Below are positions 18,616 to 64,000 of a DNA stretch of 64,000 nucleotides, one piece after another (position 1 is the stretch's first letter; every line of letters begins with the position of its first letter). The notes under the pieces were generated by a model. It saw nothing but the letters and a program-made list of their open reading frames with translations, was not told the DNA's origin and did not search any database. The position numbers were made by a program, and so were the translations under genes. Origin of the DNA: Neocallimastix sp. 'constans' (lineage: Eukaryota); contig JBODTK010000127.1 in the NCBI GenBank assembly GCA_050613775.1, forward strand, positions 186,001 through 250,000. Reading direction: 5' to 3'.

Positions 18616-18671
<56 letters not shown>

Positions 18672-18709: not shown

Positions 18710-18752
<43 letters not shown>

Positions 18753-18834: not shown

Positions 18835-18875
<41 letters not shown>

Positions 18876-19092: not shown

Positions 19093-19109
19093 GCCCGGAT
19101 TCTCCACCA
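19093..19109 (-). promoter_or_regulatory. PBS of C (tRNA-Ala)
   Basis: TGGTGGAGAATCCGGGC, 5 nt from the LTR; the same PBS occurs in the second copy at ~60785-60801. Confidence 0.85.
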
Positions 19110-20723
19110 ATTTCTGATATGGGCACAGATCACACACAATATTTTAAAAACACAATATTAAATATTATAAATAAATTTTTATTAGTTTAAAAGTATTTTA
19201 TAAATTTTTATTTTATTTTATTGTCCTTTTCAAAAGAAAGAAAATTTCTTCCTTTTATAGTTTTTTACATGAATCTTGAATTGAACATTAACATATACAT
19301 TTATTTATATTATTCTATTATGAATGTTATTTTAATATTAATATATTTTAAAATTAACCTATTCTAAAGTATCTATTTTAAAATATAGTTGTATAATTAT
19401 TAATGATTTATTTATATTTAAAATTTTAACTATCTATTCTAATAATGTTTTAATTTATCAATTAATATATAATTTAATATTCTTGTAAATTATTAATATT
19501 ATATTCTCATAAAGTTTATTATTGTAAAAAGAATACAGAAAATAATAATCTATTTTAGAGAAAACAATAAAAATAATAGTTAGTATTGTCAATCGATTTA
19601 ATTTTATACAGAATTAAATATTTCTGTATTTATTTTATTAAAAACAATTTATAGATAATTATTCTTATTATAAATAATTTTATTATAAATAAATTTTTTT
19701 TTTATTATAACTATTTTAATTTTAAATAATTTCATTATTATAAATATTTTATATTTTTTTTCTTTTTTATCATTTTTATGTATGCTTATTTGAAATAAAT
19801 AAGCTAGTTCCGGATCAAGAGTGTAAGAATCTATAATTATTTGTTAGCAAATAATTATATTTTCTTAGTTAAGTTATTATAACTATAACTTTATTTAATT
19901 ACATATAATATTTATTAAATTTATTTAATTTAATTTTAAATATTCATTAATTTAACAAAATTTATTTAATAATTTTAAATAATATATTTACAATATGTTA
20001 AATTCTCTACTGTAACTAATGTATTTTGTATTGTATTTTATTCTGTATTTTATAATGTATTCTGTATTTTATAATGTATTCTGTATTTTATAATGTATTC
20101 TGTATTTTATTAACTATTTAATTTTATATTTTTAATATAAGGATAAATTATATGATCGAAATATCTTTTATTATTTTATTCTTTTATTTTCGATCATTAG
20201 ATTAGATTAGAAAATCGGTTAATTAAGATTTTTTCCAATTACTTTTTAGAAGTAATCGGTTTTACTTAATTAATGCGATGATCGATATGGATAGAATATC
20301 GATCGAAAACTTATCTAGGTTTTTCTATCTAATCTTTTCCTAGATAAGAGATTTGTTAAGATTAGAAAACCCTTTCTTATTTAATCTTATTTTCATAAAA
20401 AAATATAAATAAGGCTCTTGAGTTCTCTTTGAGAAATCAAGAGTTATTATTATAAAAAAACATAGTTATAATAGTAACATTTTTATATTTTTAACTTTAA
20501 TAAATTAATAAAAATATTTTATTCAAAAACATATTTTTAAGATCAATTTATACAAACAATTCTTCTCTTACATTTTGCGTTATTATTATAATTAATTTTA
20601 TAATAAACTCTACATTAAAGGTAAAAAAAATTTATTTTATTTTATTTTCTCAACTTAATGAATTAGTCGTTAAGTTGTAGTTAATAATTCTATTTTGAGT
20701 TAGTTCTTAATAGAATTATTACA

Positions 20724-20735
20724 ATAATAACTCTT
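20724..20735 (+). promoter_or_regulatory. Self-priming PBS of D (ATAATAACTCTT)
   Basis: No TGG tRNA-type PBS. Exact complement AAGAGTTATTAT lies in the LTR at 20439-20450, ~30 nt after TATAAATAAG (~20404). Confidence 0.85.
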
Positions 20736-20869
20736 CTTAGATTAGCTTAGGGTTAGATAAAATGTGAAAAAATTTTAGAATAGTGTAACATTGGAAATTT
20801 TATTAGTGAATTAGTCTATTGAAATTATATATATTAGAATACAATAATAATATATAGCTAGAGTGGCAC

Positions 20870-20901
<32 letters not shown>

Positions 20902-21187
20902 TTTTATTAGCAATTTTGATTGAAAAAAAAAAAAAAAATTATATTAAAAAAAAAAAAAAAAAATTTATATTAAAAAAAAAAAATTTTTTTTAATAGTTAA
21001 TAATAGAATAATAAATTAATATTATAGAATAGTTTTAGATTATAATAATTTAATTAAAATAATTTTAGAATAAATATAATAATATATAATAGATTAGAAT
21101 TATTTTAATAATTTAGAATTAATAGTATTATAGAATAATAAATAATTTTAGATAATATAATTAAGAATAGAAAGAATAATTTAAAAT

Positions 21188-21241
<54 letters not shown>

Positions 21242-22057
21242 ATAATAATAATAAATAAATAAAGAAATAAATAAAAACATTAAAAAATAAATTAAAAATA
21301 ACAAACTGAGAAGGTAATAATACCTTCATATATAGAGTTAGCCATCTAATTGGGGATGGTGAGTACATTTTTAGGTAGTAATAAAGGAAAGGTCTCCTTT
21401 TCCTATACCGTAGCGGTTTGTACTGTACGGAAATGCAGTATTTCACGTGAAAGTATAGGTTATCCGAATGTAGCTCTAGCGAATAAGGAACTCTTGGTCA
21501 CCGAAGGCCTCGAGGTTCTTCAATATTATGTATTGAAGTAAAATTATATAGTTTTAATTTTAATAATGGGTTTTAACAGTTTGTTTATCCCAAACAAAAT
21601 TGGTTATAGCAGTTATGTTTTTTTATGCTTGATTATATAAAACTGCTATGGAAAACATAAAATATTTTTTTTATGTTTTAATGGATCACTTTTGCCGGTT
21701 TTTGAATGTTGTAAGGCATAAGAAAGTGATATTGAATTTTAATTAAAATAATACTAAATATTGTATTTATGCAGAAGTTTATAATAAAGGATAAGTTTAT
21801 AATAATATTTTGTTAATCATTTTAATTTAATTTCCAAGTACGTAGTTGACCGTTACTGGTAGGCTGTAACATTAGACCTACACCTCAGCCTTTTGGTTGA
21901 TAAACCAAATGAACGGTAACACGGGAAGGAAGAAATTAAAGTGTATTCTATAAAATATTTATTAATCAAAATCCTTATTATAATTCTTAATTTTGTGTAA
22001 TAAAAATGTCCATTTTGTTAACTCTATCCTATTTTTATCTATACTAAAGGCACAAAA

Positions 22058-25000
22058 ATGGATTTCAATAGTAATAAACAAGCAATTTCCTCAAGTGAAG
22101 TTAATAATTCCTATCTCCATGATGAAAATGCATCCAAACTTATTACTGCAATTGCTGACTTCATTCCTGCTTTCTTTTCTCCTAATGGTGTCCTCCAAAA
22201 GGAAAATGAAAGCAATAAACTAAATATATTAGAAATTTTAATTCAAAGTGAAGATTTCTTTAAGGAGCATCCAAATTCTTTTCAAAAGGATGAACTAAAA
22301 AGTTCTTTTGTTATTAATAAACTTACTGGTACCGCCAGAAAATGGGGTCTTTCTCTTTTAACTGATGGTACTCTAAAGAACCTTGAATTTAGTAAGTTTA
22401 AGAAGCTCTTACTGGATAACTTTGATATTGGGAATGAAAGGAAGCAAAAATATGTCATCATGGAAAAGTTATGGAAATTGAAACAACTTCAACTAGGAAA
22501 TGTTGCTGAATATACTATTGAATTTCGGAGATTGGCTGGACGTTTAGGATGGCCCGACGAAGTTTTAATTGATATAATCGGTAAGGGTCTACTTGACAAA
22601 GTCCGCGAAGAGTTTGATAAACTCGAAAAGCCATCTACTCTTTTTGAAGCTACCAACATTATTATTGGAATTGATAAGAAGTGTTTTTTGGAAAGTCGTC
22701 TACGCCACAATCAAAAAAATAAATTTAATGGAAAAATGTCGTTTCATAGGAAGAGAAACGATTTACTAAAATCAGAAAAGAATTCTAAACATTCTCATTT
22801 CAGAAAAAATAAGTCTAAAAACGACATACTTTCAGCAAATTACACCCCGAATATTAAAACAACAATCACAACTACCTTCTACCTTGATATTAATGGAAGA
22901 AATATTAAGGCAAATCTATTAATTGATTCGGGTTCTGCCAGAAGTTTTATTTGTAAAAACTTCGCAAATTCTAATAGATTACCTGTGTTAGGACTCAATT
23001 CCCAAATCAACATCCAACTTCCTAATGGGAAAAGTATGAATATCAGACAAACTACTAAGCCCCTTAAATTAAAATTTATGGATCATAAGGAAACTTTTGA
23101 ATTCTGCATTGCTAATCTATCTCTTCAGGGCATTAATGGTATTCTTGGAAGGGATTGGTTATCCGTTCACAATCCTTTCATCGATTATAAAAATAATAGA
23201 ATCTACTTCCTTGGTAGATACTGTGGCTCACATTGCCCATCCTCCAAAAGTAATAAGTTTTTTAATCAAAATAAAAATATTACTGCTTCAATGTTGGAGA
23301 ATTCAGAAGAAGATTCAGTATTACCAAATTCGGCTTTCGATACAGATATCTCAGATTCTGATTTATGTGCTGCAATGATTAATTCAGAAGAAGTAAACAC
23401 TGACGTTCAGGGAAAAGAAGAGATTATTAATAAATACTATTCGGATCTTAAAATAGTATTTGAAAAGAAACAAGCTGAGAACTTACCACCTCATCGTGAC
23501 TATGATATTGCTATTGAGCTTATTCCTGGTGGACAACTTTATTTTGGTCCAATATACTCTCTTACTGTACAAGAACTTAAAGCTTTAAAGGATTATATTA
23601 AGGAAAACTTAAAAAAGAAATTCATTAGGAAGTCAAAATCACCAGCAGGTGCTCCTATATTATTTGTAATGAAACGCGATGGTACCCTTAGACTCTGTGT
23701 AGATTATCGCCGATTAAATGCTATCACAATCCGTAATAGCTACCCAATTCCAAGAATAAATGACTTGATTGAATCCTTTCAAGGAGCTAAGATATTTACT
23801 CGTCTTGACCTTAGATCTGCTTATAACCTAATCAGAGTTAAAGAAGGTCACGAATATCTTACTGCTTTTAGAACCCCTTTAGGACATTTCGAGTATCTCG
23901 TTATGCCTTTTGGTCTTCGAAATGCCCCTTCGGTTTTTCAACGTTTTGTACAAGATATCTTCAGTGATATCATTGGTTCTTTCATGCAAGTCTATCTGGA
24001 CGACATCATTATTTACTCTAACAACGAAGAAGAACATATTAAACATGTTAGGATCGTTCTTCAACTTCTCATCAACAATGGATTATATGCTAAATTAGAG
24101 AAATGTGACTTCCATGTTACTAAAACCACTTTCTTAGGCTTCACTGTTTCTGTAGATGGTCTCACTATGGATAAGGATAAGGTAAAATCTGTTCTGGATT
24201 GGCCTATTCCGAAGAATCAAAAGGAATTACAAAGTTTTCTAGGCTTATGTAATTTCTATAGAAAGTTTATCAATAATTTTGCCAAAAATATGGAACCTCT
24301 TCGTCGACTTTTAAGGAAAAATACTACATTTAATTGGGATGAATCAGCAAATGAAGCTTTTAATAAATTAAAAGAATCTTTTAAAGCTGATGAAGTGCTC
24401 ATTTTTCCTAATCCAGAGAAAGAATTCATCGTTGAAACAGATGCTAGCGACTTTGCTGTCGGTTGCATACTTTCTCAGGTTAGTGACACTGATAACTTAT
24501 TGCATCCCGTAGCCTTCCATTCTAGATCCCTCAATAAAGCAGAAGTCAATTATACTATATATGATAAAGAACTTCTTGCTATAATTACTGCGTTTGAAAC
24601 TTGGAGGCATCATTTAGAAGGCGCAAAATTTCCTGTTCAAGTAATAACAGACCACAAGAACTTATTGTATTTTAAGAAACCCCAACATTTAAATCAAAGA
24701 CAAATTCGTTGGAGTCTCTTTTTATCAAAGTTTGACTATAGGATTGCATTCAGATCAGGCGCTAAAAGTGGCAAACCAGATGCTCTTTCAAGACGCCCAG
24801 ATTTTAAATCTGACTCTTCATCTGAATCACAACCTGTAATTAACAATAATGCTTTCTGTTGTGCTATAAATGACAATATTAGTAGTCTTATTGAAGCACA
24901 GAAAGCTGATAATTATTGTAAAAATATCCTCTTAAAAATAAGGGATAAGTCAAACAACATCAAAAGTTCTTTATTTTCCTTCGTCGATGGCGTACTTCAC

Positions 25001-26101
25001 TTTCAGAAGCGTATTATTATCCCTTCCAGTCTCAGGGCTAGACTTTTAAAGTCTTTCCATGATGCACCCACTAGTGGCCATCAGGGGGTAGATAGGACCT
25101 TTGAAAAACTCAGAAGGAACTACTGGTGGCCTAATATGAAAAAAGATATTTCAAATTATGTGGCTTCTTGTGATGTTTGTTGTAGAAATAAAATCCGTCG
25201 TCATAAACCTTATGGTAAACTAATACCACTTCCTACTCCTACAAAACCCTGGGAAGTTATTGGCGTCGATTTTATTGTTTCATTGCCTTCTTCACAAGAT
25301 TGCACTTGTATCATGGTTGTTTCTGATCATTTAACCAAAATGATTCATTTAGTACCCTGCTCCGATGTTCCTTCTGCCGACTTAACTGCCAAGCTCTTAC
25401 TTTTCCAAGTCTTTAAGTATCATGGTTTTCCTAAAGTGATTGTGTCTGATCATGGTTCCCAATTCTCTTCTCAATTTTGGACTTCGTTGTGCGATGCTAT
25501 TCGTGCTAAACCAAGACTTGCTACTGCTCACCACCAACAATCAAATGGTCAGGTTGAACGGGCTAATGCTGTAATAGAGCAATATCTTCGCTGCTATTGT
25601 TCTTCTGCTCAAAACGAATGGTGTTTCTACCTCCCTTTATGTGAAATGTCCTACAACAACTCCATTCACAAATCAATAGCTCAAACTCCTTTTCATGCTA
25701 ACTATGGATTTGACCCAAATTGTGTTATTGATTCACCACCGATTCTGCTAAAAGATAGTGCTTCTGTTCTTACTAGGGATTGGTCTTCACATTTCAATGC
25801 CCTTCGTCAACATCTAGTTAAAGCCAAAGAAGATTTTAAGAAATATGCTGACAATAAAAAATCTGTAGGACCTGACTTTAAGGTAAATGATTTGGTTATG
25901 CTTAGAAGATACTACTTTACGAATGAACCCTCTAGAAAATTATCCACTCAATATCTTGGACCTTTTAAAATCATCGAGAAAAGGGAAAGAATGAATTACC
26001 GTTTGGAACTTCCAGAGAACTTACATCTCCATCCGGTATTTCATATCTCACAATTGGAACCATATACTAAAAGAAATGAAGACTTAATGGAAACATCATA
26101 A
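22058..26101 (+). CDS. Gag-Pol polyprotein of D (Tf1/Tf2-like, no chromodomain)
   Basis: 1347 aa; LIDSGS, LPPHRDYD, YLDD, ETDASD, integrase ending in GPF...HPVFHISQLEPY. Confidence 0.95.
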   Translation: MDFNSNKQAISSSEVNNSYLHDENASKLITAIADFIPAFFSPNGVLQKENESNKLNILEILIQSEDFFKEHPNSFQKDELKSSFVINKLTGTARKWGLSLLTDGTLKNLEFSKFKKLLLDNFDIGNERKQKYVIMEKLWKLKQLQLGNVAEYTIEFRRLAGRLGWPDEVLIDIIGKGLLDKVREEFDKLEKPSTLFEATNIIIGIDKKCFLESRLRHNQKNKFNGKMSFHRKRNDLLKSEKNSKHSHFRKNKSKNDILSANYTPNIKTTITTTFYLDINGRNIKANLLIDSGSARSFICKNFANSNRLPVLGLNSQINIQLPNGKSMNIRQTTKPLKLKFMDHKETFEFCIANLSLQGINGILGRDWLSVHNPFIDYKNNRIYFLGRYCGSHCPSSKSNKFFNQNKNITASMLENSEEDSVLPNSAFDTDISDSDLCAAMINSEEVNTDVQGKEEIINKYYSDLKIVFEKKQAENLPPHRDYDIAIELIPGGQLYFGPIYSLTVQELKALKDYIKENLKKKFIRKSKSPAGAPILFVMKRDGTLRLCVDYRRLNAITIRNSYPIPRINDLIESFQGAKIFTRLDLRSAYNLIRVKEGHEYLTAFRTPLGHFEYLVMPFGLRNAPSVFQRFVQDIFSDIIGSFMQVYLDDIIIYSNNEEEHIKHVRIVLQLLINNGLYAKLEKCDFHVTKTTFLGFTVSVDGLTMDKDKVKSVLDWPIPKNQKELQSFLGLCNFYRKFINNFAKNMEPLRRLLRKNTTFNWDESANEAFNKLKESFKADEVLIFPNPEKEFIVETDASDFAVGCILSQVSDTDNLLHPVAFHSRSLNKAEVNYTIYDKELLAIITAFETWRHHLEGAKFPVQVITDHKNLLYFKKPQHLNQRQIRWSLFLSKFDYRIAFRSGAKSGKPDALSRRPDFKSDSSSESQPVINNNAFCCAINDNISSLIEAQKADNYCKNILLKIRDKSNNIKSSLFSFVDGVLHFQKRIIIPSSLRARLLKSFHDAPTSGHQGVDRTFEKLRRNYWWPNMKKDISNYVASCDVCCRNKIRRHKPYGKLIPLPTPTKPWEVIGVDFIVSLPSSQDCTCIMVVSDHLTKMIHLVPCSDVPSADLTAKLLLFQVFKYHGFPKVIVSDHGSQFSSQFWTSLCDAIRAKPRLATAHHQQSNGQVERANAVIEQYLRCYCSSAQNEWCFYLPLCEMSYNNSIHKSIAQTPFHANYGFDPNCVIDSPPILLKDSASVLTRDWSSHFNALRQHLVKAKEDFKKYADNKKSVGPDFKVNDLVMLRRYYFTNEPSRKLSTQYLGPFKIIEKRERMNYRLELPENLHLHPVFHISQLEPYTKRNEDLMETS

Positions 26102-27021
26102 TTAAACAGAGCAATGTAAGAATCTATAATTATTTGTTAGCAAATAATTATATTTTCTTAGTTAAGTTATTATAACTATAACTTTATTTAATTACATATA
26201 ATATTTATTAAATTTATTTAATTTAATTTTAAATATTCATTAATTTAACAAAATTTATTTAATAATTTTAAATAATATATTTACAATATGTTAAATTCTC
26301 TACTGTAACTAATGTATTTTGTATTGTATTTTATTCTGTATTTTATAATGTATTCTGTATTTTATAATGTATTCTGTATTTTATAATGTATTCTGTATTT
26401 TATTAACTATTTAATTTTATATTTTTAATATAAGGATAAATTATATGATCGAAATATCTTTTATTATTTTATTCTTTTATTTTCGATCATTAGATTAGAT
26501 TAGAAAATCGGTTAATTAAGATTTTTTCCAATTACTTTTTAGAAGTAATCGGTTTTACTTAATTAATGCGATGATCGATATGGATAGAATATCGATCGAA
26601 AACTTATCTAGGTTTTTCTATCTAATCTTTTCCTAGATAAGAGATTTGTTAAGATTAGAAAACCCTTTCTTATTTAATCTTATTTTCATAAAAAAATATA
26701 AATAAGGCTCTTGAGTTCTCTTTGAGAAATCAAGAGTTATTATTATAAAAAAACATAGTTATAATAGTAACATTTTTATATTTTTAACTTTAATAAATTA
26801 ATAAAAATATTTTATTCAAAAACATATTTTTAAGATCAATTTATACAAACAATTCTTCTCTTACATTTTGCGTTATTATTATAATTAATTTTATAATAAA
26901 CTCTACATTAAAGGTAAAAAAAATTTATTTTATTTTATTTTCTCAACTTAATGAATTAGTCGTTAAGTTGTAGTTAATAATTCTATTTTGAGTTAGTTCT
27001 TAATAGAATTATTACAAAGAG

Positions 27022-30000
27022 TGTAAAGAATTAAATTTAAACTTAATTAAATTTAACCCTTTTCTACAATTAATACTAATATTAATCGAGAAATTAAAAA
27101 AAAAGAAAATACTTAACGAAACTTAAAATAGGGTAGGAGTTTATTATAAGAGATTAGTTCAAATAAAATTTTTATTAAAATATTTTTTATTAAAAATAAT
27201 TTTTATTTAGATTTTGTTATTTTTAAAAAATTAAAAATTTATTTTGTTTATTATTATAATTATATTCTTATAATAATAACTCTTGATTTTCAAAATAAAG
27301 AAAATCAAGAATTATTTATAGTAAAGTTCCAAATCTTAATGAATAACTTTTTAGGAAAAGATTTGGGAGAAAAACCTAAAAAGTTTAATGATCAATTATT
27401 AATAAAATTGATCATATGTTAATTGAATAAAAACCGATATTTTCCAATCGGAAAACTTCAATTAACATTTGTTTTATTTAAACAATGTCAATTATACATG
27501 ACATTGTTTTATTTTAATTAATTTTTTAAATATTAATTATTCTTTTTTCATTTGATTTGTTACATTATGATTTTAATATAATTTTATAATTATTTCTAAA
27601 TTATAATTCTATAATTTATATTAGATTTGTTTAAAATTATATTAATGTAACAATTATTTAAATTAAAACTTAACATATAATTATCAAATGAATTTTAACA
27701 AATATAAAAAATATTAATGTTTAATTATTTTAATATTATTAATTAATACAATGATAAAGAATAATAATTTTACAATATTAATTTTAAATTATTAATAATA
27801 ATTTTATATTAAAAATATTTTATAATAAAGTTAATAAATTTTATTAAATAATTATTATTTTATTTAATAAAGATTAATAATTATTTTTTATTTTAATAAA
27901 GATTAATAATTATTTTTTATTTTAATAAAAATTAATTATTATTCTTTACATTGCACCCTTTAGGATGTGTTCCCATAATTGGAATGCTCTTTTAAATCTT
28001 GATTTCTTTCAACGTAGGGTTCCAATTGGGAGATGTGGAATATTGGATGTAAGTGTAAATTACTTGGAAGTTCCAACCGGTAATTCATGCGTTTTAATTT
28101 TTCCGTTATTCTGAATGGACCTAAGTATTGTGAAGCTAGCTTCTTCGCCGGCTCGTTGGTGAAATAATATCTTTTTAACCACACTTTATTGTTAATATTA
28201 AAATTTGGACCATGTTGTTTCTTGAGGTCATTATACTTTTTGAAATCTTCTTTAGCTTTGACCAGATGAGCTTGAAGAGATTGAAAATGGGCCGACCAGT
28301 CTCTTGTAAGAACTGAAGCATTATCCTTCAAAAGAATTGGAGGGGAATCAATAATACTATTTGGATTAAATCCAAAATTGGCATAGAAGGGAGAGACACC
28401 AATAGACTGATGGAGCGAATTATTATAGGCAAATTCACATAAAGGCAGGTAATAACACCATTCATTTTGTGCTGAAGAGCAGTAGCAGCGAAGATATTGT
28501 TCCACAACGGCATTTGCACGTTCAATTTGGCCATTAGACTGTTGGTGGTGAGCAGTGGCGAGATTAGGCTGAATATGCAAAGCAGAACAAAGAGAAGTCC
28601 AAAATTCCGAAGAAAATTGACTACCATGATCGGAAACGATCGTTTTAGGGAACCCGTGATATCTAAAAACGTTGAAAAGAAGAAGCTTAGCAGTAAGATC
28701 TGCTGAAGGAACATCCGAACAGGGAACCAAATGGATCATTTTGGTGAGGTGATCCGAAACAACCATGATACACGAGCAATCTTGAGAACTTGGCAATGAG
28801 ACAATAAAGTCAACACCGATAATCTCCCATGGTTTTTTAGGAACCGGGAGAGGAAGAAGTTTACCATAAGGCTTATGTCTTCTGGTTTTGCATCTTCCGC
28901 AAGTTTCACAAGATAGGATGTAGTTTTCAACATCCTTCCTCATGTTAGGCCACCAATAATAACGTTTTAATTTATCCATAGTTTTATGGATTCCTTGGTG
29001 ACCGCCTAAAGGGGAGTCATGAAAAGATTGTAAAATCTTTGTTCTAAGAAGAGATGGCACTATTATTCGTCCTTGGAAGTGTAGAACACCACGAATAAGA
29101 CTAAACAATGAGCTTTTGATTTCTTTTGATTTAGATTTTAGTTTGCTCATTGTTTCTTTGCAGAATTTGTCTTGTTTTTGTAAATCGATTAATTTATCAA
29201 TTTTTTCATAAGCTGTACAGCATATTGGGTTGTCATTGGGAATGGCACATGCTATTGGGAAATTATTTTCTTGATAATCCGGCCTTCTTGATAAGGAATC
29301 TGGCTTTCCACTTTTAGTTCCAGGTCTGTAGGAAATACGAAAATCAAATTTAGATAAGAAGAGACTCCATCGTATTTGTCGTTGATTTAAATGTTGTGGT
29401 TTCTTTAAGTACAACAAGTTTTTGTGGTCCGTTATAACTTGAATTGGATACTTCGCACCTTCTAAATGGTGCCTCCATACGTCAAAGGCTGTTATAACGG
29501 CAAGGAGTTCCTTATCATAAATTGTATAGTTCTTTTCATTCGAGTTAAGAGACCTTGAGTAGAACGCAATAGGATGAAGTAGCTGATCATTTTCTGAGAT
29601 TTGAGATAAGACACAACCAATAGCATAGTTGCTTGCGTCTGTTTCGACAATAAATTCTTTGTTATAGTCTGGAAAGATAAGGATTTCATTGGATAAAAAA
29701 GATTTTTTGAGATTTTTGAAAGCATTTTCGGCTTGATCATTCCAGATATATTCACTATTTTTCTTCAAAAGTATGCGGAGAGGTTCCATAATTTCGGCAA
29801 AATTTTTTATAAATCTTCGATAGAAATTACAAAGTCCAAGGAAACTTTGTAATTCCTTAACATTCTTAGGAGTTGGCCATTCAATTATCGATTTTACTTT
29901 ATTTTGATCCATTGTGAGGCCGTTAACCGAAATTGTAAATCCAAGGAAAGTTGTTTCTTTAACATGGAATTCGCATTTTTCTTTCTTAACATATAGGCCA

Positions 30001-32105
30001 TTTTTTATTAATAACGAAAGCACATTTTTAACATGAACGATATGATCTTCAAGATTATTTGAGTAAATAATTATATCATCCAAGTAAACTTGGACGTGAT
30101 CACCAATAAGTTCACCAAGGACATCTTGAATAAAATGCTGGAATACGGACGGAGCATTTCTTAATCCGAAGGGCATCACCAAGTATTCGAAATGGCCGAT
30201 GGGAGTTCTGAATGCTGTGAGATATTCATGGCCTTCTTTAACCCTAACAAGATTGTAGGCCGATCTTAGGTCTAACTTTGAAAATATTTTGGATCCCTTA
30301 AAGGCTTCAATCAAGTCATTAATTCTTGGTAGAGGATAGCTATTTCTAATAGTTACTGCGTTTAGCCTCCGATAATCAACACAAAGTCTGAGGGTTCCAT
30401 CTGGTTTTCTTACAAATAAAATTGGAGCACCAGCGGGTGATCTGGATTTTCTTATGAATCCTTTAATAATATTTTCTTTGATATAATCTTTAAGTGCACT
30501 CATTTCGACTTGTGACAATGAGTAAATTGGACCAAAATAGAGTTGACTTCCAGGGATAAGATCAATGGATATGTCGTATGGCCTATGTGGAGGCAATTTG
30601 TCAGCCTCCTGTTTTTTAAACACAAGAGTTAGATATTTGTAATATTTGTTAATTATTTTTTCTGTCCTTGAAAGTTCTTTTTTAATTTCGGGCATAGCTC
30701 CGCATATATCATTTTCGTAAAGTTCATCTTCTGAAATGGAAGAAGGAATTATTGAATCAGTAGTATCGTCAACCATTGGCGCGGCTACTTCAGAGGAATG
30801 AAAAACAAATTTGTTTCCTTTTGCTGAAGGACAATGATTACTACAGAAACATTCTAAGAAATATATCTTGTTATTTTTAAAATCGATATAAGGATTGTGC
30901 TTAGAAAGCCAATCTCTTCCGAGGATTCCACTAATTCCATTAAGCTGTAAGTTTCCCACAAGAAATTCATATTTCTCTTCGTGATCTAAGAATTTAATTT
31001 TTACTGGTTTTGTTACTTGCTTAATAGTCATACTCTTACTATTAGGCAATTGGATGTTTATGGGGGAAGTAAGTCCTGAAGTCGGGATCCTATTAGCAAT
31101 TATGAAGTTCTTACACATAAAGCTTTTGGCTGATCCAGAATCAATAAGAAAGTTTATTTTTTGTTTTCGTTCGTTTAAAAGAATTACAAACGTAGTAACC
31201 ATAGTAGTTGACTTGTCCGGAGTGTAGTTTGCAGAGAGGACTTCTTTCTTCTGTTTATTGTTAAATTTTGATTTAAAGAAGTTTTTATTACTTGTCTTAT
31301 TTAACTCATATTTCTTTCTTCCAAAAGTTTTACTTTTTCTTCTAGGATCTTCAGAGCTACAACCTCTTAAACTATTTTCGATGTAGCATTTCTTATCAAT
31401 GTTTATTATTATATTGGTTGCCTCAAATAAAGTCTTTGGGTTTTTTACTTTATCAAATTCATCTCTGACTTGATCTATTAGTCCCTTTCCAATAATATCT
31501 ATAAAGACACTATCTGGCCATCCCAGTCTTGAAGCAATTTTTCTAAATTCGATGGTATATTCTGCGGCTTTCCCCAACTTTTGTTGTTGTAAGTTTATAA
31601 GTTTATTTATAAGAATATATTTTTGTTTCTTTTCGTTTCCGGAGTCAAAATTTTCAAGTAAGAGATTTTTGAATTCTTCATACTTTAAAGTGCTCAGGGT
31701 ACCATCCACAAGCAAAGATAACCCCCATTTCTTTGCAAGTCCTCCTAACTTATTAATTACATAAGTATTTTTGGTTTCATCTGACAGGAAAGAATTTGGA
31801 TGGTCGGCAAAGAAATTTTCGCTCTGTATAATTGTTTCTAAAACACTTCCATTGTTCTTCTTCTCACTTTCCTTTAGTAGCATCCCTCCAGGTGAGAAAA
31901 AGGTAGGAACGAACTCTGTTATAGCCTCAATGAACTTAGAAGCATCCACATTTTTATTTATTTTGCTTATTTCTTCCTTTTGGTTCTCAGTAGTTTCCAT
32001 ATCTTATAATTATATATTTTTTTTTTTTTGAAATTAATTATTTATTAATTTATTTATCTAGATTCAAAATTATCTAAAATATATTGTTAGAGCAGTATAT
32101 TATAT

Positions 32106-32156
<51 letters not shown>

Positions 32157-33198
32157 TATTATTATTATAATTATTACTATTTTATCTATTATTATTACTA
32201 TTATTATTACTATTTCTATTATTATTATTACTATATATTTTTTTTTTTTTTATAAATAAGAGTTATTATTGTAAAGAATTAAATTTAAACTTAATTAAAT
32301 TTAACCCTTTTCTACAATTAATACTAATATTAATCGAGAAATTAAAAAAAAAGAAAATACTTAACGAAACTTAAAATAGGGTAGGAGTTTATTATAAGAG
32401 ATTAGTTCAAATAAAATTTTTATTAAAATATTTTTTATTAAAAATAATTTTTATTTAGATTTTGTTATTTTTAAAAAATTAAAAATTTATTTTGTTTATT
32501 ATTATAATTATATTCTTATAATAATAACTCTTGATTTTCAAAATAAAGAAAATCAAGAATTATTTATAGTAAAGTTCCAAATCTTAATGAATAACTTTTT
32601 AGGAAAAGATTTGGGAGAAAAACCTAAAAAGTTTAATGATCAATTATTAATAAAATTGATCATATGTTAATTGAATAAAAACCGATATTTTCCAATCGGA
32701 AAACTTCAATTAACATTTGTTTTATTTAAACAATGTCAATTATACATGACATTGTTTTATTTTAATTAATTTTTTAAATATTAATTATTCTTTTTTCATT
32801 TGATTTGTTACATTATGATTTTAATATAATTTTATAATTATTTCTAAATTATAATTCTATAATTTATATTAGATTTGTTTAAAATTATATTAATGTAACA
32901 ATTATTTAAATTAAAACTTAACATATAATTATCAAATGAATTTTAACAAATATAAAAAATATTAATGTTTAATTATTTTAATATTATTAATTAATACAAT
33001 GATAAAGAATAATAATTTTACAATATTAATTTTAAATTATTAATAATAATTTTATATTAAAAATATTTTATAATAAAGTTAATAAATTTTATTAAATAAT
33101 TATTATTTTATTTAATAAAGATTAATAATTATTTTTTATTTTAATAAAGATTAATAATTATTTTTTATTTTAATAAAAATTAATTATTATTCTTTACA
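27022..33198 (-). mobile_element. Full-length Tf1/sushi-like Gypsy element 'E' (self-priming)
   Basis: 929-bp LTRs at 27022-27950 and 32270-33198, apparently identical. TSD AAGAG. PBS at 32258-32269 complementary to an LTR-internal 12-mer. Confidence 0.95.
27960..32000 (-). CDS. Gag-Pol polyprotein of E
   Basis: 1346 aa, clearly homologous to the D polyprotein; DSG, YLDD, TDAS, integrase; no chromodomain. Confidence 0.95.
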   Translation of the reverse strand: METTENQKEEISKINKNVDASKFIEAITEFVPTFFSPGGMLLKESEKKNNGSVLETIIQSENFFADHPNSFLSDETKNTYVINKLGGLAKKWGLSLLVDGTLSTLKYEEFKNLLLENFDSGNEKKQKYILINKLINLQQQKLGKAAEYTIEFRKIASRLGWPDSVFIDIIGKGLIDQVRDEFDKVKNPKTLFEATNIIINIDKKCYIENSLRGCSSEDPRRKSKTFGRKKYELNKTSNKNFFKSKFNNKQKKEVLSANYTPDKSTTMVTTFVILLNERKQKINFLIDSGSAKSFMCKNFIIANRIPTSGLTSPINIQLPNSKSMTIKQVTKPVKIKFLDHEEKYEFLVGNLQLNGISGILGRDWLSKHNPYIDFKNNKIYFLECFCSNHCPSAKGNKFVFHSSEVAAPMVDDTTDSIIPSSISEDELYENDICGAMPEIKKELSRTEKIINKYYKYLTLVFKKQEADKLPPHRPYDISIDLIPGSQLYFGPIYSLSQVEMSALKDYIKENIIKGFIRKSRSPAGAPILFVRKPDGTLRLCVDYRRLNAVTIRNSYPLPRINDLIEAFKGSKIFSKLDLRSAYNLVRVKEGHEYLTAFRTPIGHFEYLVMPFGLRNAPSVFQHFIQDVLGELIGDHVQVYLDDIIIYSNNLEDHIVHVKNVLSLLIKNGLYVKKEKCEFHVKETTFLGFTISVNGLTMDQNKVKSIIEWPTPKNVKELQSFLGLCNFYRRFIKNFAEIMEPLRILLKKNSEYIWNDQAENAFKNLKKSFLSNEILIFPDYNKEFIVETDASNYAIGCVLSQISENDQLLHPIAFYSRSLNSNEKNYTIYDKELLAVITAFDVWRHHLEGAKYPIQVITDHKNLLYLKKPQHLNQRQIRWSLFLSKFDFRISYRPGTKSGKPDSLSRRPDYQENNFPIACAIPNDNPICCTAYEKIDKLIDLQKQDKFCKETMSKLKSKSKEIKSSLFSLIRGVLHFQGRIIVPSLLRTKILQSFHDSPLGGHQGIHKTMDKLKRYYWWPNMRKDVENYILSCETCGRCKTRRHKPYGKLLPLPVPKKPWEIIGVDFIVSLPSSQDCSCIMVVSDHLTKMIHLVPCSDVPSADLTAKLLLFNVFRYHGFPKTIVSDHGSQFSSEFWTSLCSALHIQPNLATAHHQQSNGQIERANAVVEQYLRCYCSSAQNEWCYYLPLCEFAYNNSLHQSIGVSPFYANFGFNPNSIIDSPPILLKDNASVLTRDWSAHFQSLQAHLVKAKEDFKKYNDLKKQHGPNFNINNKVWLKRYYFTNEPAKKLASQYLGPFRITEKLKRMNYRLELPSNLHLHPIFHISQLEPYVERNQDLKEHSNYGNTS

Positions 33199-33214: not shown

Positions 33215-33303
33215 GTTATTGTAGCCTGGTGGTAATACAACATGACAATGAAGCCGAACTTCTTAGGTTCGACTCACACCCTTTCCCAATCTAAATTATT
33301 TTT
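33215..33303 (+). promoter_or_regulatory. tRNA-like RNA polymerase III internal promoter (A-box/B-box-like) without a cloverleaf
   Basis: TAGCCTGGTGG at 33222 and GGTTCGACTCA at 33266 (44-nt offset, as T8 to G52 in tRNA); T5 run at 33299-33303. Acceptor and T stems do not pair. Confidence 0.45.
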
Positions 33304-52173: not shown

Positions 52174-58843
<6,670 letters not shown>

Positions 58844-59076
58844 GTTATCCATTTCCATTTCCATCGTATTATTATTAGCAGGAATTTTAATAGGTTGCGG
58901 GTTTGAGAATAAGTTTTCTTTAGTTGTTTTTTGACGATAAGGTGTGTTATCAATTTTATTTTTTGTTTTCCTAATGGCCGCAGCAACAATTTTCTGTTCA
59001 GAAGGGTCTTGTATAGTATGAATTATTGGTTGATGTGAATAGGTTTGATTTCTGGGAGTATTCCTTCTCCCATTAA

Positions 59077-60327
59077 TTAGTTTAAAGGCTTATTGTTATT
59101 ATTAATATTATTGATACTAAGATTTCCTTCTTCTTCCATTATGGCTAATTCACGATAAGAATATGGACAATCTTGTAATTTATGTCCGAATTGATTGCAT
59201 TTAAAACATTTTAATGTTTTACTATTATTATTAATATAATTGTTATTATTGACATTATTATAATTATTATTTTTAGCTTGTTTATTCAAATTCCTATCAT
59301 TGTTTACATTGTTTGTGAGGAATCTTTCATTATTAATATTATTATTGCTATTACTATTATATCTCGTATTATTGAAGTTATTAATTTTATTAAAATTATT
59401 ATTATCATTTTTCAAATAATTATTATTGAAATTGTTCCTATTGTAACTGTCAAAATTATTAAAATTATTATTATGATAATTGTTATAAGGGTCATATTGA
59501 GAATTGTTATTGTTTAATCCGTGGTTAAATCGGTTATTGTATTCATTATTATTATAAAGATTAGAACAAGCATTATAATAATTATTATACTTTCTATTAT
59601 ATCTAAAATTCATATTTCCATAGTTATTAGGAATATTGAAGGATTTATTATTAGTATAAAGGAAGGGATTTATGTTATTATCAAAAGTGTCATAATAAGG
59701 ATTATTGTGTAAGAAATTAAAAGGAGAGCTATTGGGCATATAATAAGGATTGTATTGAAAACTATTATTTTCATTTCCCAGAGCCATTATTATGTTATTC
59801 GTAATGTTTGGTACTTCAGTTGCATTTTCGGCTAATTCAGCAATTTGGAGTGCCTCTTCAAGTGTGTCTGGTTGAGCAGTAATTATTTGGGTTCTGGCAA
59901 AAGGTCTACTTGATATAGAATTACAATAATCTTTAATTGTGATAAATTCCTGAGATTCAGGGTTTAATGAATTATGTAAGTTATTATATCTCCAATTAAA
60001 ATCCCTAATAGTTTCGTTTCTTCTTATTTTAAGTGCTTTTAAATTAAAGCATTTTTCTTGTTGGGTAACCTCCAGATAATCTTCAATAGCAGTTTTCATT
60101 TCGTTAATATAAGGATAGGTAACATCATCACCATCTATAGTCTTAAGGTCTTCGAGTATACCCTTTAGACGTCCCTGAACGCACTCTTTTGCCCCCGCGA
60201 AAATCCTTTTTGGTTCCTCAATGTTAGCAAGTTCCATAATTCTTTGGAACTCCTCGGCCCAACTTTCTATATCCCTATCATGATTTCCTAACCTAGGAAT
60301 TATATGGGAAATTTCACTGATTTTCAT
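59077..60327 (-). CDS. gag: Gag of C2
   Basis: 416-aa open paralog of 17163..18410. Confidence 0.85.
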   Translation of the reverse strand: MKISEISHIIPRLGNHDRDIESWAEEFQRIMELANIEEPKRIFAGAKECVQGRLKGILEDLKTIDGDDVTYPYINEMKTAIEDYLEVTQQEKCFNLKALKIRRNETIRDFNWRYNNLHNSLNPESQEFITIKDYCNSISSRPFARTQIITAQPDTLEEALQIAELAENATEVPNITNNIIMALGNENNSFQYNPYYMPNSSPFNFLHNNPYYDTFDNNINPFLYTNNKSFNIPNNYGNMNFRYNRKYNNYYNACSNLYNNNEYNNRFNHGLNNNNSQYDPYNNYHNNNFNNFDSYNRNNFNNNYLKNDNNNFNKINNFNNTRYNSNSNNNINNERFLTNNVNNDRNLNKQAKNNNYNNVNNNNYINNNSKTLKCFKCNQFGHKLQDCPYSYRELAIMEEEGNLSINNINNNNKPLN

Positions 60328-60963
60328 CTTAAAATAAAATTTTTTTTTTTATAACTAAAAGTTATTTAATAATATAAAATTGAGAAAAAAAATATATATT
60401 TTATAAAAAGGTTATTTAATAATATAAAATTGAATATATATATATATATATATATTTTATAAAAAAAATATTTAATAATATAAAATTGAATATATATATA
60501 TATATATTTTATAAAAAAAATATTTAATAATATAAAATTGAAGAAAAAAATTATTTAATAATATAAAATTGAGAAAAAAATTTTTTTTTTTTTTTTTTTA
60601 TATAAAAATAATAATTTAATAATATAAAAATAAAAAAAATTTTTTTTTTTTTTTTTTTATAAAAAATATTTCCTCTGAAACTTCTTTAAAAAAAAATAAA
60701 ATCTTTGTTTCCTCAGAAACAAAATAAAAAAAATCTATTATTTTAATATTAATTTAAGTGTTTATTTCATATTTTTGTGTGTGCGCCCGGATTCTCCACC
60801 AATTTCTGATATGGGCATAGATCACACACAATATTTAAAAAACACAATATTAAATATTATAAATAAATTTTTATTAGTTTAAAAGTATTTTATAAATTCT
60901 TATTTTATTTTATTGTCTTTATGTATGCTTATTTGAAGTAAATAAGTTAGTTACGGATCACGA

Positions 60964-61967
60964 TGTAATAATTTAATTAAAAAATTATAATTAAATTATT
61001 AATCATTAATATTAGCTCTAACTGCTAATATTAAAGGTTTAGAAAAGAATCATACTTACCTATGGTTCTTTCTAATTATCGAGTTTATTATAACGAATTA
61101 TAACAGACGAAACACTAAAATTGATAAAGAAAAGTTTTAATTATAAAATTTGTTTTTAAAATAATTTGTTTTATTAATTATTAGAAACTTTAAATGTTAA
61201 AACTATTATTATTATTATTATTATTATTATATTATAATTGTTATAATAATAATTCTTGATTTCTCAAAGAGAACTCAAGAGCCTTATTTATACTTTTTTG
61301 TCAAAATAAGGTTAAAATCAAAAGGGGTTCTAATATTAACAAATTTCTTATCTAGGAAAAGACTAGAAGAAAAACCTAGATAAGTTTTTGATCGATATTC
61401 TATCCATATCGATCATCTCGTAAATTAAGTAAAACCGATTACTTTTAAGAAATAATTGGAAAAACCTTAATTAACCGATTACTTAATCTAATATAATGAT
61501 CAAAAATAAAAGAGTAAAATAATGAAAATTATTTCGATCATAAATTTTAAAATTTAATTTATTTAGTTCTATTTTATAGAACTTTACATAAAAATATAAA
61601 ACAATACATTAATAATAAAAATACATGATTAATAAAATACAGAATACATGATAGAATACAGAATACATGATAAAATACAGAATAGTGTTTTAGTTTATGA
61701 TTTAATAAGTAAGAGAAAACTAAAACTAATAAATTTAATAATAAAGTGAATAATTAAATAAATTTAATATTATTTTAAATGTATAAAAATTATTTAATTA
61801 AATAAAATTTTAATATTAAACTAAATAAATTTTTAATATGTAATTAAATAAATTATTAATTATAATTAAGTGTATAAATGAAATATGAGTTAAATAAAAG
61901 TTATATTAATTATAACTTAACTAAGAAAATATAATTATTTTGTTGAAAATAATTATATTTTCTTACA
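60964..61967 (-). mobile_element. Solo LTR of a D-related self-priming family ('D2')
   Basis: Reverse-complement similarity to the D LTR (e.g. TCTTGATTTCTCAAAGAGAACTCAAGAGCCTTATTTATA); TGTAA...TTACA ends; TSD CACGA at 60959-60963 and 61968-61972. Confidence 0.9.
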
Positions 61968-61974
61968 CACGAAT

Positions 61975-64000
61975 TGGGACGTAATGCTCTTATAAATTAT
62001 AAAATTTTATATTCAAAAGAAAAAAAAATTTATTCTTTATTACACTATATTAATAAATAATAATATTATTGATTATCTATATATAATCCTATAATATTAT
62101 TATTCTTCCCTTTTTTATTTTTTTTATAACTTTATTTTATTTTTTTTTATAAAATTTTTCTTCCCCCTTTTCCAAAAAAAAAAAAAAAAATATTTTTTTT
62201 TCTATTTGTATATTATTTTTTTTATTATATATATAATGTTTATAATTTATTTTTAAGAACATATTTCATATTTTTAAATAATTTTATATACTTTAATTAC
62301 ATATTAATTAAAAATAATAATTTTATACTTTAAATATAACTTAGAAATTTTTAACTATTTAATTTACTATTTACAATAATAATAATAATAATATTATTTT
62401 TTTTTTTTTTATAACTAGAAATATAATTTAATTTAATAATTTAATTGTTTGTTGATAAAATTTTATTAATTTGTTTGCTTTAGATTGTTTTAATTAAAAC
62501 CTAAATAATTTTTTTTTTTTTAATTAATTAATTTCTTTCCGAAAATTTTAGGAATTTCATATTTTTCTGAACACAACGTTCCAAGACGTCCCCCTCTAGA
62601 AGAAGGCTTCGTCCCTTGAAGTCCACGTTAATCAGCTATAATCTAGAAAAATAGGGGATAACGTTCTTTAAATGAACATTCCTTTCCGCAATTTCTCCTG
62701 AAATGGGATCACAAACTGTAATTGTATTAAACTCCTTCTTGACTATTTTTAGCGGTCCAGTGAAATATGGATCTCTTCTCAGGCTACCACCAAGTACCGA
62801 TGTACACAGAAGACCAAGATATAACTTGCTTTACGACGCTCTATGGAAATTATAATTTCAAAGTCATGCCCTTCGGATTGTGTAACGCACCTGCGACCTT
62901 CCAAAGGGAGATGAATAGAATTTTCTTCGACCTAATTGGAGAATGTGTTTTTATCTATATTGATGATTTAGTAGTATTTTCGCCCTCTTATGAACAACAC
63001 ATTAGGGATCTTGCAAACGTTTTCACTGTACTTTAAGAAAACGGATTAAAATTAAATTTAGAAAAATGTCATTTCTTCCAAGAGGAAGTGGAACTGCTAG
63101 GCCATATCCTATCTACTAAAGGTATTAAGCCTATACCAGAGAAGGTAAAGACAATTTTTCATTGGCTTCCCCCGAATAATGTATCTAAGCTTCATTCATT
63201 TTTAGGAGCGGTGGGATACTACCGGAAGCTTATTAAGGACTTCGCCCAAATCGCAAACCCTCTCTTTAAACTGTTAAAGAAAAATTCAACGTTCGAGTGG
63301 ACTTCGGAAGCCGACTTAGCTTTTAAGACTTTGAAGGAACGATTAGTACAAACTCCAATCTTGGTACCACCTGATTTTGGTAAGCCATTCATTATAAGGA
63401 ATGATGCCTCTCGGAGTGGAATAGGAGGTGTCATTATGCAAAAGGATGATAAGGGAGTTGAAAGACCAATCCATTATATCAGTCGAGCGCTTAAGAAAGC
63501 CGAGAACAAATATAGTGTCACTGACTTAGAGGGGACTGCAGCCTTGTATTGCATCAAGAAATTTAAGCATTACATATTAGGGAACAATTTTGGTACTACC
63601 TTGTTAACTGATCACAAGCCATTAGTTGGGATCTGTAATAACACGGAGCCTTCCAATAATCGACATGCAAAGTGGATAACCACATTAAGTGCGCTTCAGG
63701 TTAAAGTTCGATTTGAGGAAGGAAAGAAAAATGTAATTGCGGATGCACTATCTAGGATGGAAACCAAAAATATGATTGTGGAAGAATTGGAGAAAGAGAA
63801 CAACGAAGTGGTATTGATTTCTCAAAATATTGAAGACTTTATTAATCAAAGAATTATAGAGATCTTCTCCTGTTTTAGCTTCTCTTAGTTCTTTAAGCCG
63901 CTCTACTTTATTTCTCTGTTTGACTGGTTCTATTCTTTTCTCGGCTAAATACGATAGATCTAAGTGATCCAACCGCGAAGTATTGGAATGGTTATTTTGA
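61975..64000 (-). mobile_element. Rearranged Gypsy element 'J': 3' LTR, PPT, integrase tail, inverted RT/RNaseH fragment
   Basis: LTR 61975-62583 (TGGGACGT...ACGTTCCA). PPT AGAGGGGGA at ~62589-62597. Minus-strand DPYFTGPLKIVKKEFNT...NVHLKN at 62636-62773. Confidence 0.75.
62770..63864 (+). pseudogene. pol: Inverted RT-RNaseH fragment (Gypsy)
   Basis: DLFSGYHQ...YIDD...RNDAS...ADALSR with an internal stop at 63034-63036; bounded by GATC at both ends. Confidence 0.85.

What the first reader, a model, noticed from the sequence alone, without database searches (positions are those of the whole stretch)
60955..62583. Second end-to-end stack (C2, D2 solo LTR, J) at a different target sequence
Seen: C2..GGATCA|CGA|D2..TTACA|CACGA|AT|TGGGACGT..J. 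The D2 TSD CACGA includes the terminal CA of C2, so D2 came later. Without D2, only CGAAT separates C2 and J. The same family pairing (C followed by a D-type element) recurs, but the core is CGAAT rather than GAGT. Inference: independent replication of stacking, with the site set by position or by element ends rather than a DNA consensus. Any anchor would be outside the window.
Basis: partly seen in the sequence, partly recalled or inferred. Interest (0 to 1): 0.78.

Follow-up and report, generated by a model that had tools for sequence, protein, structure and literature searches.

The report
Retrotransposon pile-up at one insertion spot
Three Ty3/gypsy-type retrotransposon ends lie within 15 bases of each other in a very AT-rich eukaryotic genome, and this is likely the ordinary scar of repeated insertion just upstream of a tRNA-type gene that would lie beyond the broken last element.

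Summary
C2 is the 5' LTR end of a truncated minus-strand Ty3/gypsy element and ends at 60960. D2 (60964-61967) is a full-length solo LTR flanked by CACGA on both sides. J starts at 61975 and is the 3' LTR (to 62583) of another minus-strand element. Without D2, only CGAAT separates C2 and J.

The likely cause is position-directed integration upstream of an RNA polymerase III gene, as in Ty3 and DGLT-A, not attraction to LTR ends or to a DNA consensus. Two results support this:
- **First stack (B, C, D, E; all with 100% identical LTRs):** their overlapping target duplications show new elements were added on the right. Sixteen bases to the right lies a tRNA-like A-box/B-box pair at exact tRNA spacing.
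- **Outside the window:** the one informative D2-family LTR end found in metagenomes lies 15 bases upstream of a canonical tRNA-Ala gene.

For the second stack no anchor could be seen. J is broken about 0.8 kb in, and no tRNA or Rfam hit lies to its right. The order C2, D2, J is inferred. This is a new member of a known kind, of moderate interest.

The parts
58641..60806 (-). C2 body. It is a truncated Ty3/gypsy element of the C family: a pol N-terminal fragment, the gag ORF (59077-60348), the leader, and the PBS (60783-60801 as seen on the + strand).
   Evidence: blastn shows 93% identity to C 16728-18726 and 96% to C 18976-19229. tblastn gives Cgag 95% and Cpol residues 1-86 at 94%. The PBS is identical to C's. 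The left part is lost in an (ATT)n tract next to copia element H.
60807..60960 (-). C2 5' LTR, 154 bp (TGATATGGG...ACGGATCA on the + strand). Its outer edge is the left member of the stack.
   Evidence: Alignment with C's LTR shows both ends conserved and an internal gap of about 549 bp.
60959..60963 (.). Left copy of the D2 target-site duplication, CACGA. The first two bases are the terminal CA of C2.
   Evidence: Direct reading.
60964..61967 (-). D2, a solo LTR (1004 bp, TGTAA...TTACA) of the D/E lineage, inverted relative to D.
   Evidence: It aligns end to end with D's LTR. Contigs of four runs start exactly at 60964. Summed contig depth is about 10^4-10^5, against tens to hundreds on the J side.
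61968..61972 (.). Right copy of the D2 target-site duplication, CACGA.
   Evidence: Direct reading.
61971..61974 (.). GAAT, the predicted left target-site duplication of J. A 4-bp duplication is expected because B and C of the same lineage make 4-bp duplications. The prediction is untested.
   Evidence: Inference from the TSDs of B (GAGT) and C (AGAG). J's other end is not in the window.
61975..62583 (-). J 3' LTR (609 bp), with the inverted repeat TGGGACGT / ACGTTCCA.
   Evidence: X3 contig 61940-62088 spans its outer edge with 0 differences.
62584..62794 (-). J inner flank: a purine tract (62589-62597), the pol stop (62596-98), and the last ~60 codons of pol, which carry a frameshift.
   Evidence: tblastn maps Cpol 1443-1485 to 62773-62645 on the minus strand.
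62767..63864 (+). A plus-strand RT/RNase H fragment joined directly to the minus-strand J pol end. This is the break that hides J's far end.
   Evidence: tblastn maps Cpol 750-1121 at 59% identity. Pfam finds RT_RNaseH domains. Contigs of three runs end at 63864.
11967..33198 (.). Context: three of the four first-stack elements, C (11967-19817, -), D (19822-27016, +) and E (27022-33198, -). Each has 100% identical LTRs. The spacers are AGAG and AAGAG. B (4655-11963, -) lies to the left, separated from C by GAG.
33215..33287 (+). Context: a tRNA-like relic 16 nt to the right of E. It has an A-box-like TAGCCTGGTGG (33222-32) and a B-box-like GGTTCGACTCA (33266-76) at tRNA spacing, with a T5 run at 33299. 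It has no cloverleaf.
   Evidence: It is not called as a tRNA by ARAGORN or Rfam.

Best explanation
The C2 / D2 / J junction is the scar of three separate Ty3/gypsy integrations into the same window of about 7 bp, and that window was likely fixed by an RNA polymerase III initiation complex on a tRNA-type gene that would lie to the right of J, as for Ty3 and DGLT-A.

Proposed mechanism:
- Each integration duplicates 4 bp (B/C/J lineage) or 5 bp (D/E lineage).
- This leaves the same few bases next to the anchor and pushes older elements away.
- Neighbouring elements therefore end up separated only by overlapping duplications. A newcomer can also use the last A or CA of the resident LTR.

Shown: the three termini, the CACGA duplication, and C2 before D2.
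Inferred: the order C2 then D2 then J; the anchor itself; and that the integrase reads TFIIIB.
For: 1. The junction anatomy is confirmed.
2. In the first stack, all complete elements allow the TSD logic to be tested. The TSDs are B GAGT, C AGAG (using B's last A), and D and E AAGAG (D's left copy using C's last A). Only the order B, C, then D/E, with additions on the right, satisfies every duplication. The opposite order fails for D (CAGAG against AAGAG).
3. The targets lie at 33199-33204, which is -16 to -11 from position +1 (33215) of a tRNA-like unit. That unit is the only A-box/B-box pair in the window. With at most 1 mismatch there are 6 A-like and 2 B-like sites on both strands, and the expected number of pairs at spacing 42-46 is 0.0005. 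With looser settings, 20 of 300 shuffles gave any pair anywhere.
4. The metagenome scan with the D2 terminus gave 3 loci. Only L001 is a true D2-family LTR end (more than 50 nt match). It ends 15 nt before a canonical tRNA-Ala(TGC) followed by a T run. It aligns in register with the first-stack flank.
5. The distances match published ones: DGLT-A at 13-33 bp (mean 15) and Ty3 at about 15 bp upstream of the mature tRNA. Several elements at one tRNA gene are noted (PMC5006619, passages read; PMC5911963, passages).
6. D's polyprotein is a close Ty3 relative (7q5b, E 2e-140).
Against: - No tRNA, tRNA-like A/B pair or Rfam family lies to the right of D2 or J in the window.
- J is broken, so the key prediction is untested.
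- The first-stack 'anchor' is not a tRNA by ARAGORN or Rfam, even at E up to 10. Its fold is no better than shuffles (z -1.25). Whether Pol III uses it is unknown.
- Only one external LTR-tRNA junction was found.
- D and E end 8 residues after the SH3 domain, so they lack the chromodomain that Ty3 uses to contact Brf1.
- If D2 was in fact the last insertion, it went in with J already lying between it and any anchor on the right.
Confidence: 0.6

Rival explanations
1. LTR-end-directed integration. The integrases (or a host factor bound at LTR ends) would steer new copies to the outer edge of a resident 5' LTR, with no Pol III gene involved. D2 would then have gone in last, between C2 and J.
For: In both stacks a D-type LTR abuts the 5' end of a C-type element, and its TSD uses the C element's last A or CA. 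C's TSD likewise uses B's last A. No anchor is seen for stack 2.
Against: The first stack has a tRNA-like module at the Ty3 distance. The D2-family copy in L001 sits next to a tRNA gene, with no second LTR between them. Flanks of other D2-family copies at this terminus are heterogeneous and are not C-type ends (loose ends, agreement 0.55-0.71). All additions in stack 1 are on one side only.
Confidence: 0.17
2. No targeting. This is a transposon graveyard where nesting, deletions and rearrangements happened to bring three LTR ends together.
For: The region is scrambled. C2 is truncated in an (ATT)n tract beside two copia elements. J is broken and joined to an inverted RT fragment. The D2 family is extremely abundant.
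Against: All three termini are intact to the last base. D2 has a perfect 5-bp TSD. Only 5 bp would separate C2 and J. The same architecture occurs with four intact elements 27 kb away.
Confidence: 0.13
3. Assembly artefact. The junctions would be chimeric joins between repeat copies.
For: Both C2 and D2 belong to repeated families. No contig bridging C2|D2 was listed. One X5 contig fits only from 61972 rightwards, with 29 letters on its left that do not fit D2.
Against: An X3 contig (149 nt, 0 differences, single-copy-like depth) spans the end of D2, the TSD and the J start. There is depth across the C2|D2 bins in X1, X2 and X3. A perfect TSD that includes C2's CA would not arise from a chimeric join.
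Confidence: 0.05

Closest known systems
Ty3 of Saccharomyces cerevisiae (Ty3/gypsy; integrates at Pol III transcription start sites through integrase-TFIIIB contacts)
   Same: D's polyprotein matches Ty3 Gag-Pol from RT through the integrase CTD (7q5b, E 2e-140) and has a Ty3_capsid match. It makes a 5-bp TSD. Insertions sit about 11-16 nt upstream of a tRNA(-like) 5' end, in both orientations. Pile-ups of elements and solo LTRs at one target are ordinary for Ty elements (my own knowledge; PMC5911963, passages read).
   Different: D and E have no chromodomain after the SH3 CTD; Ty3's lies at IN 446-511 and contacts Brf1 (preprint 10.1101/2021.07.27.453949, passages read). LTRs are 0.9-1.0 kb against sigma's roughly 340 bp (sigma length recalled). 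The host is a very AT-rich eukaryote. TFIIIB dependence is untested.
DGLT-A of dictyostelid amoebae (Ty3/gypsy, 13-33 bp upstream of tRNA genes)
   Same: It has a single gag-pol ORF and no C-terminal chromodomain extension. It has the same distance window, in an AT-rich genome. Multiple tRNA-specific elements at the same tRNA gene are noted (PMC5006619, passages read).
   Different: No sequence comparison with DGLT-A was made here. This window also shows a second, deeply diverged gypsy lineage (B, C, J; separate gag and pol ORFs, 4-bp TSD; 36-37% RT identity to D/E) using the same spot.
Tj1 (Schizosaccharomyces japonicus) and Tca8/beta, Tyl3, Ylt1, Tyl6 of other yeasts
   Same: [quoted passage not shown]
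   Different: They are all ascomycete yeasts. No comparison was made beyond the literature.

Membership tests
Ty3/gypsy (Metaviridae) LTR retrotransposons | Pol domain order PR-RT-RNase H-IN, with an integrase zinc finger and core | tested here: met
   Pfam finds RVT_1, RT_RNaseH, Integrase_H2C2 and rve, in that order, in B, C, D, E and F. D and E also have RVP_2, Ty3_capsid and SH3_Tf2-1. J has only the pol C-terminus and an adjoining RT/RH fragment. C2 has only gag and the start of pol.
Ty3/gypsy (Metaviridae) LTR retrotransposons | LTRs ending TG...CA with short inverted repeats and a 4-6 bp target duplication | tested here: met
   The D2 TSD is CACGA on both sides. The TSDs of C2 and J cannot be read, because one end of each is missing.
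Pol III-targeting retrotransposons (Ty3 / DGLT-A type) | Several independent copies at a similar short distance upstream of different tRNA genes (criterion used in PMC5006619) | tested here: inconclusive
   One of one informative external copy (L001) lies 15 nt from tRNA-Ala. Four stacked elements lie 11-16 nt from a tRNA-like relic. No genome was available for a tally.
Pol III-targeting retrotransposons (Ty3 / DGLT-A type) | A Pol III gene next to the newest element of this particular stack (C2/D2/J) | not testable with these tools
   J is broken at 62767-62794 and the window ends at 64000. No tRNA or Rfam hit lies in 60700-64000.
Pol III-targeting retrotransposons (Ty3 / DGLT-A type) | Integrase contacts TFIIIB (TBP/Brf1) | not testable with these tools
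   This needs biochemistry or genetics.
Ty3 proper | Vestigial chromodomain C-terminal to the integrase SH3 domain | tested here: not met
   The alignment of D to 7q5b ends at Ty3 residue 1447, and D ends 8 residues later. The Pfam SH3_Tf2-1 domain is the last domain. The Ty3 chromodomain is at IN 446-511. The offset between IN and Gag-Pol numbering is my estimate.
tRNA gene (for the first-stack anchor at 33215-33287) | Cloverleaf recognised by tRNA finders or the Rfam tRNA model | tested here: not met
   ARAGORN finds none at default settings or with -ps. Rfam gives no tRNA hit at E up to 10.
tRNA gene (for the first-stack anchor at 33215-33287) | Internal A and B boxes at canonical spacing | tested here: met
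   The A box matches 10 of 11 and the B box 10 of 11, with T8-to-T54 spacing of 46 nt, in register with a real tRNA-Ala. The consensus motifs are recalled, not taken from a tool.

The most novel reading that the evidence does not exclude
Two deeply diverged Ty3/gypsy lineages home to the outer edge of resident 5' LTRs themselves, cutting into the last one or two bases of the resident element. Retrotransposon trains would then grow without any Pol III gene. The tRNA-like relic beside the first stack would be incidental.
Probability: 0.12. Interest if true: 0.75.

Novelty: new member of a known kind. Interest (0 to 1): 0.33.

Why it matters
If the Pol III reading is right, this AT-rich eukaryote carries at least two active gypsy lineages that use tRNA-type genes as safe landing sites. 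Four stacked elements have identical LTRs, and the D2 family is very abundant. The organism is probably gut-dwelling, because the sequence occurs in many animal faeces metagenomes.

That would add one more independent case to the convergent evolution of Pol III targeting (yeasts, dictyostelids). Here the integrase lacks the chromodomain that Ty3 needs.

The first stack also suggests that an A/B-box relic that is no longer a tRNA can still attract insertions. That would be a simple natural test of what the integrase reads.

My four literature searches found no paper on such elements in anaerobic gut fungi. The organism's identity is itself only an inference.

Tried and rejected
- **Whole genome:** none is held for this window, so no genome-wide tally of tRNA to LTR distances and no extension beyond 64000 was possible.
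- **tRNA and Rfam scans:** ARAGORN on the window found 0 genes. With thresholds lowered to 80% it gave 37 calls, or 117 with introns allowed, which are noise. Rfam at gathering threshold on the whole window gave 0 hits. Rfam at E up to 10 on 33150-33400 and E up to 1 on 60700-64000 gave only chance hits.
- **Collection scans:**
  - Viral contigs with the D2 terminus and with a D/D2-conserved 28-mer: 0 and 0.
  - Prokaryote genome contigs with the 28-mer: 0.
  - Metagenome scan: 3 loci. L002 and L003 share only about 24-26 nt and are treated as chance matches. L003 has 50% GC and lies beside the 3' end of a tRNA-Leu.
- **Read laying:**
  - No contig bridging C2|D2 was listed.
  - X5 record 27 fits only from 61972 rightwards. 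It could be another J-type LTR copy (for example J's own 5' LTR beside its PBS) or a strain difference. This is not resolved.
- **Sensitive self-blast of the flanks:** it drowned in AT-rich chance matches. A short-word search found only a 10-nt match between the relic's B box and a hairpin repeat at 1250-1470, so the idea that the relic is part of a repeated element was dropped.
- **Protein atlas:** it gave no taxa for the gypsy polyprotein. For the flavin oxidoreductase fragment it gave only bacterial clusters.
- **Earlier findings of this scan:** there was nothing for this genome or for the D2 sequence.
- **Element A:** its right end at 4650 could not be verified, because the second LTR copy lies outside the window.
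Full report
**What the window is.** The sequence is extremely AT-rich (14-36% G+C per 2 kb). It reads with the standard code into polyproteins of 1300-1500 aa.

Self-comparison and Pfam show a dense field of LTR retrotransposons:
- B (4655-11963) and C (11967-19817), Ty3/gypsy.
- D (19822-27016) and E (27022-33198), Ty3/gypsy. B, C, D and E each have 100% identical LTRs.
- F, a 5'-truncated gypsy element (about 33.7-38.4 kb).
- G and H, two Ty1/copia elements lying in (ATT)n tracts.
- The three pieces of this finding, at the right end of the window.

B, C, F and J form one lineage, with separate gag and pol ORFs. D and E form another, with a single ORF, Ty3_capsid and SH3_Tf2-1 domains, and 36-37% RT identity to the first lineage.

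No whole genome is held. The stretch 60700-62300 occurs in runs of three coded organisms and in many animal faeces metagenomes. I therefore infer, from my own knowledge only, a gut-dwelling AT-rich eukaryote such as an anaerobic fungus. This is not shown.

**The observation.**
- C2 ends ...ACGGATCA at 60960. The last 154 bp (60807-60960) align with both ends of C's 703-bp LTR across an internal gap of about 549 bp. Just inside lie the same PBS as in C (60783-60801) and a gag ORF 95% identical to C's. C2 is therefore a minus-strand element whose 5' LTR faces right. Its left part is lost in an (ATT)n tract next to copia element H.
- D2 (60964-61967, TGTAA...TTACA) aligns end to end with D's LTR in reverse orientation, with 671 identical columns of 1023. 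It is flanked by CACGA at 60959-60963 and 61968-61972.
- Contigs of four public runs start exactly at 60964, with unlike sequence before it. This independently marks 60964 as the terminus of a repeat. Summed contig depth over D2 is about 10^4-10^5, against tens to hundreds on the J side. This is only a rough sign that the family is very abundant.
- J begins TGGGACGT at 61975. Its LTR ends ...ACGTTCCA at 62583, a 7 of 8 inverted repeat. Next come a purine tract and the stop codon of a minus-strand pol whose end (...TSRDEAFF*) matches those of B and C (...TSRDEVQS*...TSRDEVHS*).

J is thus the 3' LTR of a minus-strand element. Only about 60 codons of its pol remain, with a frameshift. At 62767-62794 it is joined to a plus-strand RT/RNase H fragment.

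**Read support.** One X3 contig (149 nt, 61940-62088, 0 differences) spans the J start with 35 and 114 letters on the two sides. It reaches only 28 letters into D2. The C2|D2 bins have depth in X1, X2 and X3, but no bridging contig was listed. One X5 contig fits only from 61972 rightwards, and this is unexplained.

**What the intact first stack teaches.** The junctions read cca GAGT [B] GAG [C] AGAG [D] AAGAG [E] AAGAG ttagtaaaa. The duplications are:
- B: GAGT.
- C: AGAG, with the left copy using B's last A.
- D and E: AAGAG, with D's left copy using C's last A.

Only the order B, then C, then D/E, with each newcomer added on the right, satisfies all of them. The reverse order fails for D (CAGAG against AAGAG). 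All targets fall in 33199-33204.

Sixteen bases to the right of E, a tRNA-like unit starts at 33215. It has TAGCCTGGTGG at 33222 (10 of 11 of the A-box consensus) and GGTTCGACTCA at 33266 (10 of 11 of the B-box consensus). The T8-to-T54 spacing is exactly that of a tRNA, and a T5 run lies at 33299.

It is the only such pair in the window:
- With at most one mismatch there are 6 A-like and 2 B-like sites on both strands.
- That gives 0.0005 expected pairs at spacing 42-46.
- With looser settings, 20 of 300 shuffles gave a pair anywhere.

It is not a tRNA by ARAGORN or Rfam, and it folds no better than shuffles. I read it as a decayed tRNA gene or tRNA-derived unit that keeps its internal promoter. 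Whether Pol III uses it is unknown.

**Outside evidence.** A metagenome scan with the 24-base D2 terminus gave three loci.
- Two share only about 24-26 bases and are treated as chance.
- The third, L001, carries more than 50 bases of a D2-family LTR end. It stops 15 bases before a canonical tRNA-Ala(TGC) gene followed by a T run.
- L001 aligns in register with the first-stack flank.
- The same tRNA-Ala 3' end, plus CCA, is the PBS of the element at the window's left edge (2468-2485). L001 therefore comes from a related organism.

These distances match published ones. DGLT-A lies 13-33 bp (mean 15) upstream of the mature tRNA and Ty3 about 15 bp. The same paper notes several tRNA-specific elements at one tRNA gene (PMC5006619, passages read). 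PMC5911963 tabulates other fungal gypsy elements with this habit (passages read).

**Reading of the second stack.** By analogy, C2, D2 and J are three integrations into one small window (CACGAAT). It is likely held in place by a Pol III initiation complex to the right.
- Predicted targets: C2 at CGAA, D2 at CA+CGA, and J at GAAT.
- Inferred order: C2, then D2, then J.
- C2 before D2 follows from the duplication using C2's CA. The opposite order needs a 1-in-16 coincidence.
- D2 before J is required by the model but not shown.

All three members are decayed: one is truncated, one is a solo LTR, and one is frameshifted and broken. This fits an older stack whose anchor may also have decayed. No tRNA, A/B pair or Rfam hit lies in 60700-64000.

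**Rivals.** Four readings were weighed.
- LTR-end-directed integration is the most interesting reading that remains open. The recurrent C-then-D pairing, and the use of the resident element's last bases, fit it. Three things speak against it: the relic beside stack 1, the L001 junction, and the heterogeneous flanks of other D2 copies.
- Pure chance in a scrambled region is unlikely, given intact termini and a perfect duplication.
- An assembly artefact is unlikely, given the X3 contig and the duplication. Long reads would settle it.
- A shared DNA consensus is excluded, because the two stacks use unlike sequences.

**Comparison with the known.** D's polyprotein matches Ty3 Gag-Pol from RT to the end of the integrase SH3 domain (7q5b, E 2e-140). 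It stops 8 residues later. By my estimate of the numbering offset, it lacks the chromodomain (Ty3 IN 446-511) that contacts Brf1 (preprint 10.1101/2021.07.27.453949, passages read). In this respect it resembles DGLT-A, described as lacking that extension.

The elements therefore work like Ty3/DGLT-A. They cannot be filed as using Ty3's exact contacts.

Stacks of LTRs at tRNA genes are ordinary in yeasts. Earlier notes of this scan on other genomes say the same (untested here).

**Verdict.** This is a new member of a known kind, in an organism where my searches found no such report. Interest is moderate.

Noticed in passing
4655-33198: Four full-length Ty3/gypsy elements of two deep lineages (B, C; D, E) lie end to end, separated by only 3-5 bp. 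Each has 100% identical LTRs and long open reading frames, so they are probably recent and possibly active.
   Followed up: yes
33215-33305: A tRNA-like relic with A and B boxes at exact tRNA spacing and a T5 run, but no cloverleaf. It lies 16 nt from the last stacked element.
   Followed up: yes
1250-1470: Five tandem units of a small hairpin (GGTTCGAA...TTCGACC) lie in the leader region of the leftmost element, between its gag ORF and its PBS. Their function is unknown.
   Followed up: no
2468-2485: A PBS complementary to the 3' end of tRNA-Ala plus CCA. The same 15 nt are found in the tRNA-Ala gene of metagenome contig L001. The B element's PBS region (about 11165-11190) instead contains a T-loop-like GGTTCGAA close to CCA, which is unusual.
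   Followed up: partly
45743-58609: Two Ty1/copia elements (G 45743-52106, LTRs 99.7% identical; H 52171-58609, LTRs 98.4% identical) lie in opposite orientation inside (ATT)n microsatellite tracts. G has an apparent ATTAT duplication. This may reflect a preference for the microsatellite.
   Followed up: no
38644-39420 (-): A fragment of an NADH:flavin oxidoreductase (Old Yellow Enzyme family). Its nearest atlas clusters are 89-100% bacterial, so it may be a gene of bacterial origin in this eukaryote.
   Followed up: no
43072-44523 (-): An intact ORF with FLYWCH zinc-finger and MULE transposase domains. It is a DNA transposon or a domesticated transposase.
   Followed up: no
62767-62794 and 63864: The end of a minus-strand pol is joined head-on to a plus-strand RT/RNase H fragment. 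Contigs of three runs stop at 63864, where the sequence changes again. These are rearrangement breakpoints of unknown origin.
   Followed up: partly
61972 (run X5): A 146-nt contig matches J's LTR from 61972 rightwards, but its other 29 letters do not fit the end of D2. It may be another J-type LTR copy or a strain difference at this very junction.
   Followed up: no
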